Assembly (NCBI RefSeq): GCF_009914755.1
Contig: NC_060928.1
Direction: 5' to 3' (one strand)
Origin: the human T2T-CHM13v2.0 reference genome, Homo sapiens
Length of the DNA stretch: 64,000 bases
Each line of letters opens with the position of its first letter. Positions within the stretch are counted from its first letter, which is position 1. Below the pieces are notes generated by a model that had not been told where the DNA came from, did not search any database, and saw only the letters and a list, made by a program, of their open reading frames with translations. The position numbers and the translations under genes are program-made. Below are positions 521-19,399 of this stretch, one piece after another.

Positions 521-1735
521 AGGAGGATGCAATGTGGGCAGCCTGCACACAGCACTTACAGCCTTCTCTCCAGCTGTGTGTCAGTGGGTACTTGCCGCTG
601 TGCTTTTGCACATGCTGGCCTCTGTGCCTGCCAGTCATTCCTTGCCCTGGGAGAAGAACTTTAACTGCCCTCTCAAGGGTACCTTCTGTGAATCAGTCCT
701 GTTGGCCTCCACCTCCTCTATCCCTCTCTTTGCTTCATGCACATGCTGGAACTCATGCACATTGCACAACCTCGACCATATTGTGCCCTGGAAGGTGCCC
801 CAGAAATAAGGACAGCGTGCCATCCATCCCTGAAGCCTGTGTTTCTCAGAGTGCCCACACCTCAGAGTGTCCACCACACAGTAAAGGCTCAACCACAGAC
901 TGACTGCGGACCTGACTGGGGTCTTGCTCTCCCTTTAACTTTAAGCCCCAATTGGCAGCAATCGCAGAGCTTTGTCCCTCCCTGTGAGCCTGTCTGGCTG
1001 TTTATGCTGGATGACATGCACCCCCTCTGCCAGGAGTGCATAGTCTATGGCCTGGCCAGGCAGCCATTGCAGATGAGAAGAGCTTCAACCTCAACTTTAT
1101 TGTGCTGCTGGGTTTTTTCTGCTGGCTCTTAGCACGTTTCTCATGAGCCATGATTAGCCTCAGGTCTATGGAACCTTCTGCAGCTATGTCATGGTGACTG
1201 AGGACATCATCTGAAGCATGTGCCACTGCTACCCCAAGGCAGGTGTTGGTGAGGCTGTGTGGGGATAGGAGGGTTGGAGACCATGCCTCTATCTCATAAA
1301 TGAATTCTTCATCCTTCAATCATCTCCTCATTCTCATTTTGACTCTCTGTTTATTTCTTACTGCTCTCATGAGCATTCATCCATCCATCCATGTTTCCAT
1401 CCATACTTTCATCCACCCATCCATTCATCTATTCATCCATCACTTAGCAGAGGGGTTGATCAGAAGCCCCCAGGATCTGAAACCATGAAACAAATACCAT
1501 GGAAGGGAAGAAATGAAGCACAACACATTACTCACGTGCTTAAACTAAAAGACAATGAGTGCTTTAAAGCTGAGGCTGAGAAAGTGAGGTTCTATAGCTG
1601 AGTGGCAGGGTTTGGATTGGAGCTCAGATGTGCAAATGTAGGCATCATTCTTGTTTTTGATTTCTCCATTTCAGGGTCCCAGAGCTTTCTGGGGTGGGTC
1701 AGGTCTAATCTTGGTGGAATGCATTAAGCAATTCC

Positions 1736-2037
1736 TTTTTTTTTTTTTTTTTTTTTTGAGATGGAGTCTCACTCTGTCGCCAGGCTAAAGTGCAGTGGCA
1801 CAATCTTGGCTCACGGCAACCTCTGCCTCCTGCTTACAAGCAATTCTCCTGCCTCAGCCTCCCAAGTAGCTGGGACTACAGGTGCACACCACCACACCTG
1901 GCTAATTCTTGTATCTTTAGTAGAGAGGGAGTTTCACCACGTTGGCCAGGATGGTCTTGATCTCTTGACCTCGTGATCCGCCTGCCTTGGCCTCCCAAAG
2001 TGCTGGGATTACAGGCGTGAGCCACCGCATGTGGCCT
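1736..2037 (-). mobile_element. AluS-type element, left arm only
   Basis: Poly(T) plus full Alu; TSD-like agcaattc on both sides; empty site at ~18003-18012. Confidence 0.9.
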
Positions 2038-2094
2038 GAGCAATTCTTTATCTTTTGGAGTCTTAATGTATTCCTAGCCCTAGGAGTGATTTAG

Positions 2095-14916: not shown

Positions 14917-17427
14917 TCTTTTTTTTTTTTTTTTGAGATGGAGTCTTGCTCTGTCACCCAGACTGGAGTGCAGTGGCACAATCTCGGCTCACTGCAACTT
15001 CTGCCTCCTGGGTTCATGCGATTCTCCTGCCTCAGCCTTCCAAGTAGCTGGGACTACAGGTGCGCGCCACCACGCCCAGCTAATTTTTGTATTTTTAGTA
15101 GAGACAAGGTTCCACCATGTTGGCCAGGATGGCCTTGATCTCTTGACCTCATGATCCGCCTGCCTCAGCCTCCCAAAGTGCTGGATTACAGTCATGAGCC
15201 ACCATGCCCAGCCGTGTGCTAACATTTCTAATAACTTCATCAGGAATTCTATATTTATATGGAATTTTAGTCCATAGTCTTCTTTACTTGTGATTCTTTT
15301 GTCTGGCTTTGGTATCACAGTACCCCTAGCTAGTAAATTAATAGAAAAATGTTACCTCTGCCATTGATGAAAGTTTATGTGAAAAAATTATATTACATTT
15401 TTATTAAATGTCAGTGAAATTCAGAATTAATGCAATTTGACACTGAGCTTTTATATGTAAAAATAATTTAATTAATACTTTCTATTGTTATATGGGTATT
15501 CACTTACTCTCATTTAATATATATGGATGTATATTCTTCATTTTTGCACAATGAAAACTGATTTCTCAGCATTATTTGTTGAACAAACTTCCTCCATTGG
15601 AATTTCTTGGCATCTTTGACAGAATTATTTTTACCTCAAATTAATACCTTCAACTTTATTCTTTTAATCTACACAAATCAATTCCTATGGTAGTACTATA
15701 TTCTTTGATTACCATAACATTATAACTATAGCATTACTATCATAATTTTTGCCTATCAAGAGTTTTTTTTGTTTTTTTTTTAGACAGTGTCTTGCTCTTA
15801 TCGCCCAGACTGGAGTGCATTGGCGCGATTTCGGCTCACTGCAACCTCTGCCTCATAGGTTCAAGTGATTCTCCTGCCTCAGCCTCCCAAGTAGCTGGGA
15901 TTACAAGTGCCCACCACCACACCCAGCTAATTTTTGTATTTTTAGTAGAGACGGGGTATCGCCATGTTGGCCAGGCTGGTCTCAAGCTCCTGACCTCAGG
16001 TGATGTGCCCGCTTTGGCCTCCCAAAGTGCTGGGATTACAGGCGTGAACCACCATGCCCATCTGGACATTTATTTTTTTATTTTTTGAGACACCGTCTTG
16101 CTCTGTCAACCAGTCTGCAGTGCAGTGTGATGATCTTGGCTCACTCCAACCTCTGCCTCATGGGTTCAAGGGATCCTCCTGCCTCAGCCTCCTGAGTAGC
16201 AGGGACCACAGGCATGCACCACCACATATGACTGACTTTTGTAGTTTTGGTAGAGATGGGGTCTTGCCATGTAGCCCAGGCGGGTCTTGAACTCCTGAGC
16301 TCAAGCAAAAGACATTTTTTAATTTTATACTAGTTTACAAAAGTTTATATCCTAGATACTTGACATGAAATAATATGAAATAAAAATATAAAATAGGCTG
16401 GGCGCAGTGGCTCACGCCTATAATCCTAGCACTTTGGGAGGCTGAGGCTGGAGGATCACCATATCAGGAGATCAGTACCATCCTGGCCAATATGGTGAAA
16501 CCCCGTCTCTACTAAAAATACAAAAGTTAGTTGGGCGTGGTGGCGGGTGCCTGTAATCCCAGCTACTCAGGAGGCTGAGGCAGGAGAATTGCTTGAACCA
16601 GGGAGGAGGAGGTTGCAGTGAGCCAAGATCATGCCACTGCACTCCAGCCTGGGCTGTAACTTAATCAATAAATAACACAAATTTTACTCCATTATTAAGA
16701 TGGAGAATATGACTATAATTGTGTTAGTTAATACTTATGTTTACTGTGGGAGACAAATTAGTTACTGAGTAGTTAACTGAGTAGTTAGAAGTTAATAACA
16801 TTGCAATTTGACTTTCGAATGTATAAAGCTGGCAAACGAAGCCTCCCTTCTATATTTATCAACATTTAAGTAAGACAAAATGAATTTTAATAAGAACAAA
16901 TAAAAAATAATTATATTGTATTTAAAGAAAGCTATGAACAAAAGATAATCTGACCATCACAGTCATTAGTATTTCATTCATACAATATGTAAGACAATAT
17001 TTTAAGCCATTAAACATTTTTAGACTTAACACCTAAGAGTTTAAAGTGAATATGTTAAATATTTATTGAATTAAAAACTGGTACCTTTAAAAATTAGATT
17101 TTAATTGAAATATAATTATTAGGCCGGGCACAGTGGCTCACACCTGTAATTCCAGCACTTCGGAAGGCCAAGGCAGGCAGATCACCTGAGGTCATGAGTT
17201 CGAAACCAATCTGACCAAAATGGTGAAACCCAATCTCCACTAAACATACAAAAATTAGGCGGGCGTGGTGGTGTGTGCCTGTAATCCCAGCTACTTGAGA
17301 GGCTGAGGCAGGAGAATCACTTGAACCTGGGAGGCAGAAGCTGCAGTGAGCCAAGATCACACCATTGCACTCCAGTCTGGGCAACAGAGCAAGACTCCCT
17401 CTCAAACAAACAAACAAACAAACAAAA
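14917..17427. mobile_element. Right-arm Alus: 14917-15213(-), 15763-16062(-), 16068-16310(-, AluJ), 16396-16654(+, tail-less), 17122-17427(+)
   Basis: Alu bodies read directly; most have empty sites in the left arm. Confidence 0.85.
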
Positions 17428-19399
17428 GATTATTCACAAAAATGGAAGTAAAATTTCCACAAATGTATAGAGCTAAAACCAGAGAAATAAATATAAATGG
17501 AACTGAGAGAAATTGTCCTTAAAGCTGGAAATGGATTCTTACAATACCTTCAACAAAAAAGGGTAAATTATTTTCAAAAGAAAAACATTAATTTGGTTAT
17601 CAATAGGAGCTTCTTAAGTGTGTAGTTCAAGAAAAAAGAAACATTTTTGTGTCTAAAGTTAAAAATAAAAATGAAAGAGTAAGAGACTTGACTTGGGAGC
17701 TGACATGTTCTTTTCTCAAGGTTATCAGTACCCGGCAGCCTTTCAACTACAAACAACATTCTAGAGTTGACAAAATATTTGTATATCCCATCTCTTCTCT
17801 GATCTTTATATGCTGTTTGGCTGTGCAAAATAGAGGCTAAAGTCCCATTTTGCAGATGAAAAAGCTGAGGCTCGGAAAGACAAACATCACACACAAAGTT
17901 TGGGTCACAACTGGCATTAGAACACAGGACTCTCAAACCAGTGCTTTCCCATCACTAAACCACTCCTAGGGCTAAGAATACATTAAGACTCCAAAAGATA
18001 GAGAATTGCTCAATGCATTCCACCAAGATTAGACCTGACCCACCCCAGAAAGCTAAGCCGCTCTGGGGCCCTGGGGTGGAAAACTCAAGAAAAAGAATGA
18101 TGCCTACATTCACACATCTGAGCTCCAATCCAAACTCGGCCAGTCAGTTATAGAACCTCATTTGCTGAGCCTCAGCTTTTTCTGATATAAAATGGAACTA
18201 CAGAAGGCTCCAAAAAGATCAGGATAAGGGCAGAACTGCACTCTAAATGCAGGAGTGCCTGGCAGGTGGAAACCACTCACTGACTTTTAGTTTAAGCACA
18301 TAAGTAATATGTTGTGTTTCACTGTGTCTCCTCCATGGTGTCTGTTTCATGGCTCCAGATCCTGGGGGCTTCTGATCAATCCTTCTGCTAAGTGATGGAC
18401 GAATAGATGAATGGATGGGTGGTTGAAAGGGTGGATGAAATGATGCATAGATGGATGAATGCTCAGGAGGGCAGAAAGAAGTAAACACAGAGTCAAAATA
18501 AGAATGAGGAGATGATTGAAGGATGAAGAGTTGATGCATGAGATAGAGACATGGTCTCCAACCCTCCTATCCCCACACAGCCTCACCAACACCTGCCTTG
18601 GGGTAGCAGTGGCACATGCTTCAGATGATGTCCCCAGTCACCATGACATAGCTGCGGAAGGTGCCATAGACCTGAGGCTAATCATGGCTCATGAGAAACG
18701 TGCTAAGAGCCAGCAGAAAAAACCCAGCAGCACAATAAAGTCGACGTTGAAACTCTTCTCATCTGCAATGGCTGCCTGGCCAGGCCATAGACTATGCACT
18801 CCTGGCAGAGGGGGTGCATGTCATCCAGCATAAACACCCAGACAGGCTCACAGGGAGGGACGAAGCTCTGCGATTGCTGCCAATTGAGGCTTAAAGTTAA
18901 AGGGAGAACAAGACCCCCTCAGGTCCAGACCCAGTGCCTGGGCCCACAAGTTCAGATGGCAAGAGGCAGCACACTTCAGTGAACAATTGCACCCACCCAC
19001 CCACTCACCTTCTCTCCTCACCATCCTGCCTTCTCTGCAGGCTAAGCAGTCCTGCAGGGCATGTATGAATCTGAATGAGAGAGTATGCAGGAAAGAGAGA
19101 AGGGAAGATTACCAGGACTGGGCCCCAGCCAAGGATTTGACATCACCTTATTTGCCTACTATAGGGATGAACTAGGTGGTCAAGTGGCCGTATTATTTCA
19201 CTGTATTAATACAAATACACCTTCCAGCCCTGGGAAGCAGCATACAATTGCCAAGAGACGTTAGAATGCTGCTGGAGGATTCCAGGGTCTCACAGTCTGG
19301 ATTTTAGAGTCCTGAATTTTAGACTTTTCAAGGACATGTGCTCCTCTGGGGTTCAGGCATAATAGACTATATTTACCGATGGTGACTGTGTGCATGACG

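What the first reader, a model, noticed from the sequence alone, without database searches (positions are those of the whole stretch)
908..18926. ~18 kb diverged inverted duplication (quasi-palindrome) ending ~2.3 kb upstream of the ZNF141 promoter
Seen: 908-9187 and 12952-18926 are reverse complements, carrying the same ordered content (unique GC-rich block, MIR, truncated AluJ, old L1M) around a ~3.8 kb spacer. Identity is roughly 85-90% by eye. Repeat masking would fragment it, and it may fall below the usual 90% segmental-duplication threshold, so it could be unannotated. Inference: a fold-back duplication that may mark the rearrangement that placed this KZNF gene beside GC-rich MIR/L2-containing DNA. 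It could also template spacer inversion, or long dsRNA if transcribed.
Basis: partly seen in the sequence, partly recalled or inferred. Interest (0 to 1): 0.8.

Follow-up and report, generated by a model that had tools for sequence, protein, structure and literature searches.

The report
Head-to-head junction of ZNF732/ZNF141 duplicates
The inverted repeat is real, but it is only the middle of an old, roughly 114 kb mirror-image pair formed by two neighbouring zinc-finger genes, an ordinary by-product of how this gene cluster grew.

Summary
The inverted homology is real. Window 908-9184 and 13973-18926 form a collinear anti-diagonal through low-copy DNA, 84-92% identical per block.

- 12964-13972 is a dispersed solo-LTR-like repeat, not part of the right arm.
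- The outer ends, 908 and 18926, are not duplication ends. After a gap caused by differential loss, the anti-diagonal resumes at both promoters. It then runs through ZNF732 (minus strand, left of the window) and ZNF141. That gives 43 collinear blocks and 23,619 ungapped columns at 87.2% identity, spanning about 114 kb.

The same unit occurs twice more in direct orientation, at the ZNF876P and ZNF718 regions, at 86-88% identity. The "arms" are therefore the upstream flanks of two head-to-head paralogues in the 4p16.3 KRAB zinc-finger cluster.

The junction lies between an L1 on the ZNF732 side (about 12604) and 13973, and was later filled by an Alu and an LTR. The single-copy spacer 9185-12604 is ancestral.

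Regional trees and Alu markers conflict, so the copies have a mosaic history. Estimated age is about 30-60 Myr. The longest exact arm-to-arm match is 84 bp, so recombination between the arms is unlikely. Verdict: ordinary, low interest.

The parts
1..907 (-). ZNF732-side unit (A). This stretch has no partner in the window, but it is collinear with the ZNF718-region copy (chr4:107771-108662, 89.9%).
908..9184 (-). Left arm, the upstream flank of the ZNF732 unit (A). Arm-specific Alus lie at 1736-2028, 2459-2750, 6522-6828 and 7868-8160. An extra 3.4 kb (2912-6281) is present here.
7143..7370 (.). Truncated Alu shared with the right arm (16069-16303) at the collinear position.
   Evidence: 7055-7370 vs 16389-16076, 84.2%
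8509..8810 (.). Alu shared with the right arm (14345-14647) at the same site, with a target-site duplication. The ZNF876P copy has the empty site.
9185..12604 (-). Single-copy spacer. It is the continuation of unit A and is collinear with ZNF876P upstream (chr4:182720..179659), so it is ancestral. Positions 11178-12604 are an L1 with an ORF1-like reading frame. Positions 12080-12569 are a ~490 bp dispersed repeat inserted in A only. An Alu lies at 9358-9682.
12611..12960 (+). Alu (to ~12901) whose tail has become an (ATAC)n/(AT)n microsatellite. It was inserted at the junction.
12964..13972 (.). Solo-LTR-like dispersed repeat (~1 kb, TG..CA, 6 bp duplication TACCTA). It is a later insertion and not part of the arm.
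13973..18926 (+). Right arm, the upstream flank of the ZNF141 unit (B). It is truncated at 13973 relative to both A and the ZNF876P copy. Arm-specific Alus lie at 14915-15213, 15763-16060, 16390-16654 and 17122-17434.
18927..20899 (+). ZNF141 upstream stretch lost from A but collinear with ZNF876P upstream (chr4:191739-192424 and 198202-199497).
20900..62215 (+). Continuation of the inverted homology through the ZNF141 promoter, exons 1-3 and introns. Its partner is ZNF732 at window -10872..-51454. The two transcription start sites align to within ~5 bp.
   Evidence: hub annotation for exon and TSS positions
26839..27137 (+). Alu shared by ZNF141 and ZNF876P at the same site with a target-site duplication. 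The site is empty in ZNF732. This marker conflicts with the shared arm Alu.

Best explanation
The two 'arms' are the upstream flanks of two inverted paralogous duplication units of the 4p16.3 KRAB zinc-finger cluster. Unit A carries ZNF732 on the minus strand. Unit B carries ZNF141 on the plus strand. Together they form a diverged quasi-palindrome of about 114 kb (window -51454 to 62215) at about 87% identity.

The same unit occurs in direct orientation at ZNF876P (C) and in the ZNF718 region (D). The arms' outer ends, 908 and 18926, come from different deletions in A and B.

The true junction joins an L1 on the A side (~12604) to B at 13973. An Alu and a solo LTR were inserted there later. 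Positions 9185-12604 are an ancestral single-copy spacer.

Shown: the extent, the copy number, the junction anatomy and the mosaic relationships.

Inferred:
- Mechanism. My preferred reading (about 45%) is an inverted, fold-back or template-switch type duplication of the ZNF732-side unit, with a spacer of roughly 2.6-3.4 kb.
- Age. About 30-60 Myr.
- Later history. Early gene conversion or recombination between the copies.
- Present role. The structure is a neutral relic. It has no function of its own and simply places two promoters head to head, 32.4 kb apart.
For: Extent.
- the best collinear chain between B and reverse-complemented A has 43 low-copy blocks and 23,619 ungapped columns at 87.2% identity.
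- That chain includes B 20900-23033 against A -10872..-13024, which covers both transcription start sites, and the blocks over ZNF141 exons 2 and 3.

Copy number.
- 68% of chr4:90001-374000 is low-copy paralogous sequence (2-8 self-matches).
- pairwise identities are B-A 87.2, B-C 87.6, A-C 86.7 and 85.6-85.9 to D.
- B 13976-24452 is collinear with C 182723-209237, and A 12079..-14757 is collinear with C 179686-208693.
- One search also shows that A and B keep different pieces of the C interval 191.7-205.7 kb.
- promoter and exon 1 copies lie at chr4:52.5, 123.8, 205.7, 298.5(-), 330.9, 379.3 and 467.2(-) kb.

Junction.
- the centre consists of transposon insertions, and the ~490 bp repeat is absent from the intact C site.

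Affinity of A and B.
- A and B share an Alu that C lacks.
- the tree for 40001-64000 groups A with B (99% bootstrap).

Age.
- the K2P distance between A and B is 14.1% over the whole chain and 12.4% in the arms.
- (de Tribolet-Hardy 2023, supplementary table): all these genes are in cluster chr4.1, with ages of 43.2 Myr (ZNF141) and 29.4 Myr (ZNF732, ZNF876P).
Against: - No single tree fits the copies. One search gives B+C for 21204-40000 (98%) and A+C/B+D for 13973-21203 (99%).
- One search shows an Alu shared by B and C but absent from A.
- Within the arms proper the informative sites are unresolved: 6, 7 and 9 for the three groupings, out of 1,180 four-way sites.
- The order of events, and whether this junction arose by duplication or by inversion, is therefore not settled.
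- The original junction is overwritten by an Alu tail and a microsatellite, so microhomology cannot be read.
- Gaps in the chain (B 18927-20899; A 907..-10871) are explained by differential loss. This is an inference from copy C, not from an outgroup species.
- Only low-copy blocks were chained, so the zinc-finger exon itself is not in the chain.
Confidence: 0.85

Rival explanations
1. Inversion rather than duplication at this junction. Three tandem direct units (C, A', B) existed first, and the middle one was later flipped. This creates a head-to-head junction (A/B) and a tail-to-tail junction (C/A) in one step.
For: - The present order C(+) A(-) B(+), with both a tail-to-tail anti-diagonal (chr4:174841-250967 vs 258567-317620) and a head-to-head one, fits this model.
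- A, B and C are nearly equidistant.
- Informative sites are almost evenly split: 128, 108 and 91 of 11,629.
- B shares an Alu with C that A lacks.
Against: - The piece missing from B's head (equivalent to window 9185-12604) should lie, flipped, at the other breakpoint near chr4:251-258.5 kb. One search lists no such match there. It may have been deleted, so this is weak evidence.
- A and B share an arm Alu absent from C.
Confidence: 0.35
2. A single complex event of the duplication / inverted-triplication / duplication type made C, A and B at once from one unit.
For: - There are three copies with the middle one inverted.
- The relationships are nearly star-like.
Against: - Alu insertions are shared by only two of the three copies. 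One is shared by A+B and one by B+C. Each requires time between the splits, or later conversion.
- Regional trees are strongly supported but differ from one another.
- The mechanism is recalled from the human-disease literature (Carvalho et al. 2011), which I did not read here.
Confidence: 0.1
3. One reading: a stand-alone ~18 kb fold-back duplication of intergenic DNA, unrelated to the gene duplications, that brought foreign GC-rich DNA next to ZNF141.
For: Within the window alone, homology appears to stop at 908 and 18926, and 1-907 and 18927-21500 have no partner.
Against: - Homology resumes at the promoters and runs through both genes at the same identity.
- The right arm and the DNA up to the promoter are collinear with ZNF876P upstream.
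- The 'GC-rich block' is part of every copy of the unit.
Confidence: 0.03

Closest known systems
Local segment and gene duplication in KRAB zinc-finger clusters (cluster chr4.1 of de Tribolet-Hardy et al. 2023, PMC10547255; the primate ZNF91-type expansion of Hamilton et al. 2006 is recalled and not held in the library)
   Same: - There are multiple copies of a unit made of an upstream region plus a KRAB-ZNF gene, at 86-88% identity and in both orientations.
- The copies are primate-age.
- Upstream sequence has relatives in the chr7 pericentromeric and chr19p12 regions.
   Different: I found nothing in print on the base-level junction, the spacer or the mosaic Alu markers of the ZNF732/ZNF141 pair. 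The two 2006 Genome Research papers could not be opened.
Large sex-chromosome palindromes (Jackson et al. 2021, PMC8327919; passages read)
   Same: Inverted arms containing genes face each other across a single-copy spacer a few kb long.
   Different: Those palindromes are defined by arms >8 kb with >99% arm-to-arm identity, maintained by ongoing gene conversion. Here identity is 87% and the longest exact match is 84 bp, so homogenisation stopped long ago.
Annotated human segmental duplications (T2T SEDEF set; Vollger et al. preprint, passages read)
   Same: Low-copy duplicated DNA well over 1 kb in a subtelomeric region.
   Different: It falls below the 90% identity filter. The only block at or above 90% and longer than 250 bp is 658 bp long (92.4%).
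Fold-back inverted duplications and inverted triplications of genomic disorders (recalled; not read here)
   Same: - Arms are inverted around a spacer of a few kb.
- One arm starts at a derived breakpoint, while the spacer keeps the ancestral order.
   Different: - This one is tens of millions of years old and fixed.
- It is interstitial.
- Its junction is overwritten by later insertions.

Membership tests
KRAB-ZNF cluster duplication unit (paralogous gene plus flank copies) | Each copy carries a KRAB-ZNF gene whose promoter and exons align collinearly with the others. | tested here: met
   B 20900-23033 aligns with A -10872..-13024, covering both transcription start sites, and blocks cover ZNF141 exons 2 and 3; seven promoter and exon 1 copies on distal chr4p.
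KRAB-ZNF cluster duplication unit (paralogous gene plus flank copies) | The flanking (arm) sequence is present upstream of other cluster members in the same order. | tested here: met
   B 13976-20885 is collinear with chr4:182723-199497 (ZNF876P upstream). B 17601-19740 is collinear with chr4:101521-106324.
Annotated segmental duplication (T2T/SEDEF criteria) | [quoted passage not shown] | tested here: not met
   87.2% over 23,619 ungapped columns. For the arms, 88.6% over 3,473 columns. The best block is 92.4% but only 658 bp long.
Large palindrome in the sense used for X and Y chromosomes | Arms longer than 8 kb. | tested here: met
   The units span about 63 kb and at least 48 kb.
Large palindrome in the sense used for X and Y chromosomes | Arm-to-arm identity above 99%. 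| tested here: not met
   87.2%.
Fold-back (inverted) duplication | A single-copy spacer in ancestral order, with a derived breakpoint at the start of one arm. | tested here: met
   A 9185-12604 is collinear with C. B ends at 13973 relative to both A and C.
Fold-back (inverted) duplication | The two arms are each other's closest relatives. | tested here: inconclusive
   In favour: the shared Alu and the tree for 40-64 kb. Against: the tree for 21-40 kb and the Alu shared by B and C.
Fold-back (inverted) duplication | Microhomology at the junction. | not testable with these tools
   The junction is occupied by an Alu, a microsatellite and an LTR.
Inverted triplication made in one event | The three copies are of equal age. 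| tested here: inconclusive
   Distances are nearly equal. However, two Alu insertions are each shared by only two copies.

The most novel reading that the evidence does not exclude
The ZNF876P(+) / ZNF732(-) / ZNF141(+) trio is a fossil of one or two fold-back-type inverted duplications, and one junction is still readable almost to the base: an L1 at ~12604 joined to 13973. The conflicting Alu markers and regional trees would then record a period of arm-to-arm and copy-to-copy gene conversion just after the event. That would make this a datable autosomal example of how a palindrome is born and then decays once conversion stops.
Probability: 0.3. Interest if true: 0.35.

Novelty: new member of a known kind. 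Interest (0 to 1): 0.2.

Why it matters
- It removes a false lead. The structure is not a special rearrangement beside ZNF141. It is the normal architecture of a primate-specific KRAB zinc-finger cluster.
- It shows that duplications of about 87% identity spanning more than 100 kb fall outside the usual segmental-duplication definition.
- It gives a worked example of a decayed autosomal palindrome that primate assemblies could date.
- It has little bearing on ZNF141 function or on disease.

Tried and rejected
- I first read 12951-13973 as a piece of a unit's 3' tail, because it matches chr4:252469-253468 at 84% on the minus strand. I rejected this because it is a genome-wide dispersed LTR-like repeat.
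- I considered the GC-rich block as a CpG island or promoter. I rejected this because its CpG o/e is 0.08-0.18. Many of its genome hits come from a (CATC)n microsatellite at 1374-1441.
- I looked for a second Alu shared by A and B, at B 30425-31040. The alignment is ambiguous: two tandem Alus in B, one in A, none in C, and target-site duplications that do not clearly match. I did not count it.
- In one search the Alu at B 15763-16059 is scored as 'present' in A. That is an artefact of alignment to the neighbouring truncated Alu, so I dropped it.
- I tried to obtain one tree for the four units. The regional trees conflict.
- Hamilton 2006 and Huntley 2006 are not held in the library.
- Repeat family names (MIR, AluJ, L1M, LTR family) were not determined.
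Full report
**Observation**

An unmasked self-comparison of the window and the repeat finder show a clean, ordered anti-diagonal between 908-9184 and 18926-13973. It has nine blocks at 81-92% identity with E-values from 1e-30 to 0. The blocks are interrupted only by Alu elements present in one arm and by 3.4 kb (2912-6281) present only on the left.

A copy-depth map shows that the matching blocks are low-copy within the window. 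A whole-genome search with 7388-7860 finds only 4 matches: itself, its partner at 15311-15761, a partial match on chr19 at 23.3 Mb, and a short one at chr4:174.8 kb. Over the 3,473 aligned arm columns the raw difference is 11.4% (K2P 12.4%).

**Corrections to the coordinates**

The right arm begins at 13973, not 12952. Positions 12964-13972 form a dispersed element about 1 kb long with discrete ends. All 40 scored matches lie on many chromosomes at 85-92% identity, out of 611 first-look candidates. The element starts with TG, ends with CA, and is flanked by a 6 bp duplication, TACCTA. That is the signature of a solo LTR. I did not determine its family.

The 'unique GC-rich block' (908-1565) is 47% GC with CpG o/e 0.08, so it is not a CpG island. 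It also has other copies:
- chr4:191084-191738 at 92%
- chr4:102167-102811 at 80%
- chr7:66.07 Mb at 77%
- chr1:54.88 Mb at 70%
- a series of pericentromeric and acrocentric sites at 70-72%

In the four non-chr4 copies whose flanks I compared (the chr7, chr1, chr17 and chr22 loci), the homology extends about 1.4-2.2 kb, skipping the left arm's Alus.

**What it belongs to**

I fetched chr4:90001-310000 and compared it with the window. In this 284 kb, 68% of bases have 2-8 paralogous matches.

Chaining the low-copy matches shows that the anti-diagonal does not end at 908/18926. It resumes at B 20900 against A -10872 and continues to B 62215 against A -51454. Here B is the ZNF141 side and A is the ZNF732 side. 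The chain has 43 collinear blocks and 23,619 ungapped columns at 87.2% identity.

The block B 20900-23033 / A -10872..-13024 puts the ZNF141 start site (21204) within about 5 bp of the ZNF732 start site (-11181). Further blocks cover ZNF141 exons 2 and 3. The quasi-palindrome is therefore about 114 kb long and consists of two head-to-head genes.

**More copies of the unit**

The same unit occurs in direct orientation at chr4:179686-258056 (C, ZNF876P) and at chr4:94058-171422 (D, the ZNF718 region). Pairwise ungapped identities are B-A 87.2, B-C 87.6, A-C 86.7, and 85.6-85.9 to D.

B 13976-24452 is collinear with C 182723-209237. The right arm and the 2.3 kb between it and the ZNF141 promoter are therefore the ordinary upstream region of the cluster's unit, not foreign DNA.

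Between the 'GC block' and the promoter, A and B keep different pieces of the C interval:
- B keeps C 191739-192424 and 198202-199497.
- A keeps C 195334-196784 and 200837-205655.

This explains why homology seems to stop at 908/18926. Promoter and exon 1 copies lie at chr4:52.5, 123.8, 205.7, 298.5(-), 330.9, 379.3 and 467.2(-) kb.

**The junction**

A stays collinear with C beyond the arm, from 9185 to about 12604 (C 182720 to 179659). B stops at 13973 relative to both A and C. The 3.4 kb 'spacer' is thus ancestral sequence of the A unit, and B's start is the derived breakpoint.

The last part of the spacer (11178-12604) is an L1. It has an ORF1-like reading KEKLIRLTAD at 12040-12079. It is interrupted at 12080-12569 by a ~490 bp dispersed repeat: 40 matches elsewhere, at 74-82%, from 414 candidates. 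This repeat is absent from the intact site in C.

Between 12604 and 13973 there is only later-inserted material. This is an Alu (12611-12901) whose tail has become an (ATAC)n/(AT)n microsatellite, followed by the LTR-like element. The original joint is therefore known to within about 10 bp, but its microhomology cannot be read.

**Relationships and age**

Among 11,629 sites aligned in all four units, the informative sites split as follows:

| Grouping | Informative sites |
|---|---|
| AB\|CD | 128 |
| BC\|AD | 108 |
| AC\|BD | 91 |

Maximum-likelihood trees by region are each strongly supported but disagree with one another:

| Region (window) | Grouping | Bootstrap |
|---|---|---|
| 13973-21203 | AC\|BD | 99% |
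| 21204-40000 | BC\|AD | 98% |
| 40001-64000 | AB\|CD | 99% |
| all sites | AB\|CD | 78% |

Rare insertions also conflict. The Alu at A 8509-8810 = B 14345-14647 has the same site and duplication in both arms, and C has the empty site. The Alu at B 26839-27137 is shared with C, and A has the empty site. A third candidate was ambiguous.

The copies therefore have a mosaic history. The most likely cause is gene conversion or recombination among them soon after they arose.

The K2P distance between A and B is 14.1% (13.1% without CpG sites). With assumed neutral rates of 1.0-2.2e-9 per site per year (my assumption, not a tool result), that corresponds to roughly 30-60 Myr.

The shared arm Alu differs by only 6.0% and 3.2% from the consensus of 121 local Alus. 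This suggests it belongs to the main primate Alu burst; that link is my inference.

Published fingerprint-based ages are 43.2 Myr for ZNF141 and 29.4 Myr for ZNF732 and ZNF876P. All are in cluster chr4.1 (de Tribolet-Hardy et al. 2023, supplementary table).

**Mechanism**

Three histories give the present order C(+) A(-) B(+):
- Successive inverted duplications.
- Inversion of the middle unit of a tandem trio.
- A single complex event.

I favour an inverted, fold-back-type duplication at the A/B junction (about 45%), for three reasons. The spacer is ancestral and B begins at a derived breakpoint. A and B share a centre-proximal Alu. B's missing head piece is not found at the reciprocal position near chr4:251-258.5 kb (no such match).

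The inversion model (about 35%) is not excluded, because that piece could have been deleted. The single-event model (about 10%) fits the near-equal distances. It does not fit the two Alus that are each shared by only two copies.

**Function**

I find no evidence that the structure does anything.
- The arms are not CpG islands.
- The RefSeq regulatory elements in the hub table lie at 19914-21910, outside the arms.
- No transcript is annotated over the arms.
- The longest exact matches between the arms are 84, 84, 78 and 71 bp. From general knowledge, this is well below what efficient homologous recombination needs, so spacer inversion is unlikely.

The dsRNA idea was not tested.

**Comparison with known kinds**

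It differs from sex-chromosome palindromes, which are defined by arms >8 kb with >99% identity (PMC8327919 passages).

It falls below the T2T segmental-duplication filter of 90% identity and 1 kbp (bioRxiv 10.1101/2021.05.26.445678, Methods passage).

Searches for a printed description of this particular pair found none. Two relevant 2006 papers could not be opened.

**Verdict**

This is a real but ordinary relic. It is the centre of an old inverted paralogous gene pair in a known cluster.

Noticed in passing
window -135159..-59033 vs -51433..7620 (chr4:174841-250967 vs 258567-317620): A second large diverged quasi-palindrome lies next to this one. The ZNF876P unit and the ZNF732 unit are tail to tail, with 31 kb of low-copy aligned sequence, around a ~7.6 kb centre at chr4:250967-258567.
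   Followed up: partly
window 908-3100; L005 (chr7:66.07 Mb), L006 (chr1:54.88 Mb), L007 (chr17:23.4 Mb), L008 (chr22:11.5 Mb): The arm's outer ~2 kb has 70-77% relatives on chr7, chr1 and at more than a dozen pericentromeric or acrocentric sites (chr13, 14, 17, 20, 21, 22). This suggests an older duplicon shared with other zinc-finger regions.
   Followed up: partly
window 20900-21500: The ZNF141 promoter and exon 1 have 84% copies at almost the same distance (~49-53 kb) from the starts of chr4, chr15, chr21 and chr22. This indicates a shared subtelomeric block on acrocentric short arms.
   Followed up: no
chr4:379292-379833 (window 69292-69833, outside the window): A further promoter and exon 1-like copy (78%) lies about 1 kb beyond the annotated 3' end of ZNF141.
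   Followed up: no
window 12964-13972: A solo-LTR-like element with a 6 bp target duplication sits exactly at the junction. ZNF732's reported main target is an ERVK-type LTR (LTR13; supplementary table). The family of this element was not determined.
   Followed up: partly
window 10312-10775 and 10577-11045: There is a weak internal direct repeat (67.8% over 478 columns) inside the spacer.
   Followed up: no
window 30425-31040: ZNF141 has two Alus in tandem where ZNF732 has one and ZNF876P has none. It is unclear whether any of them is a shared insertion.
   Followed up: partly
window 1374-1441: A (CATC)n microsatellite in the left 'GC block' produces many spurious matches to minisatellite arrays genome-wide.
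   Followed up: yes
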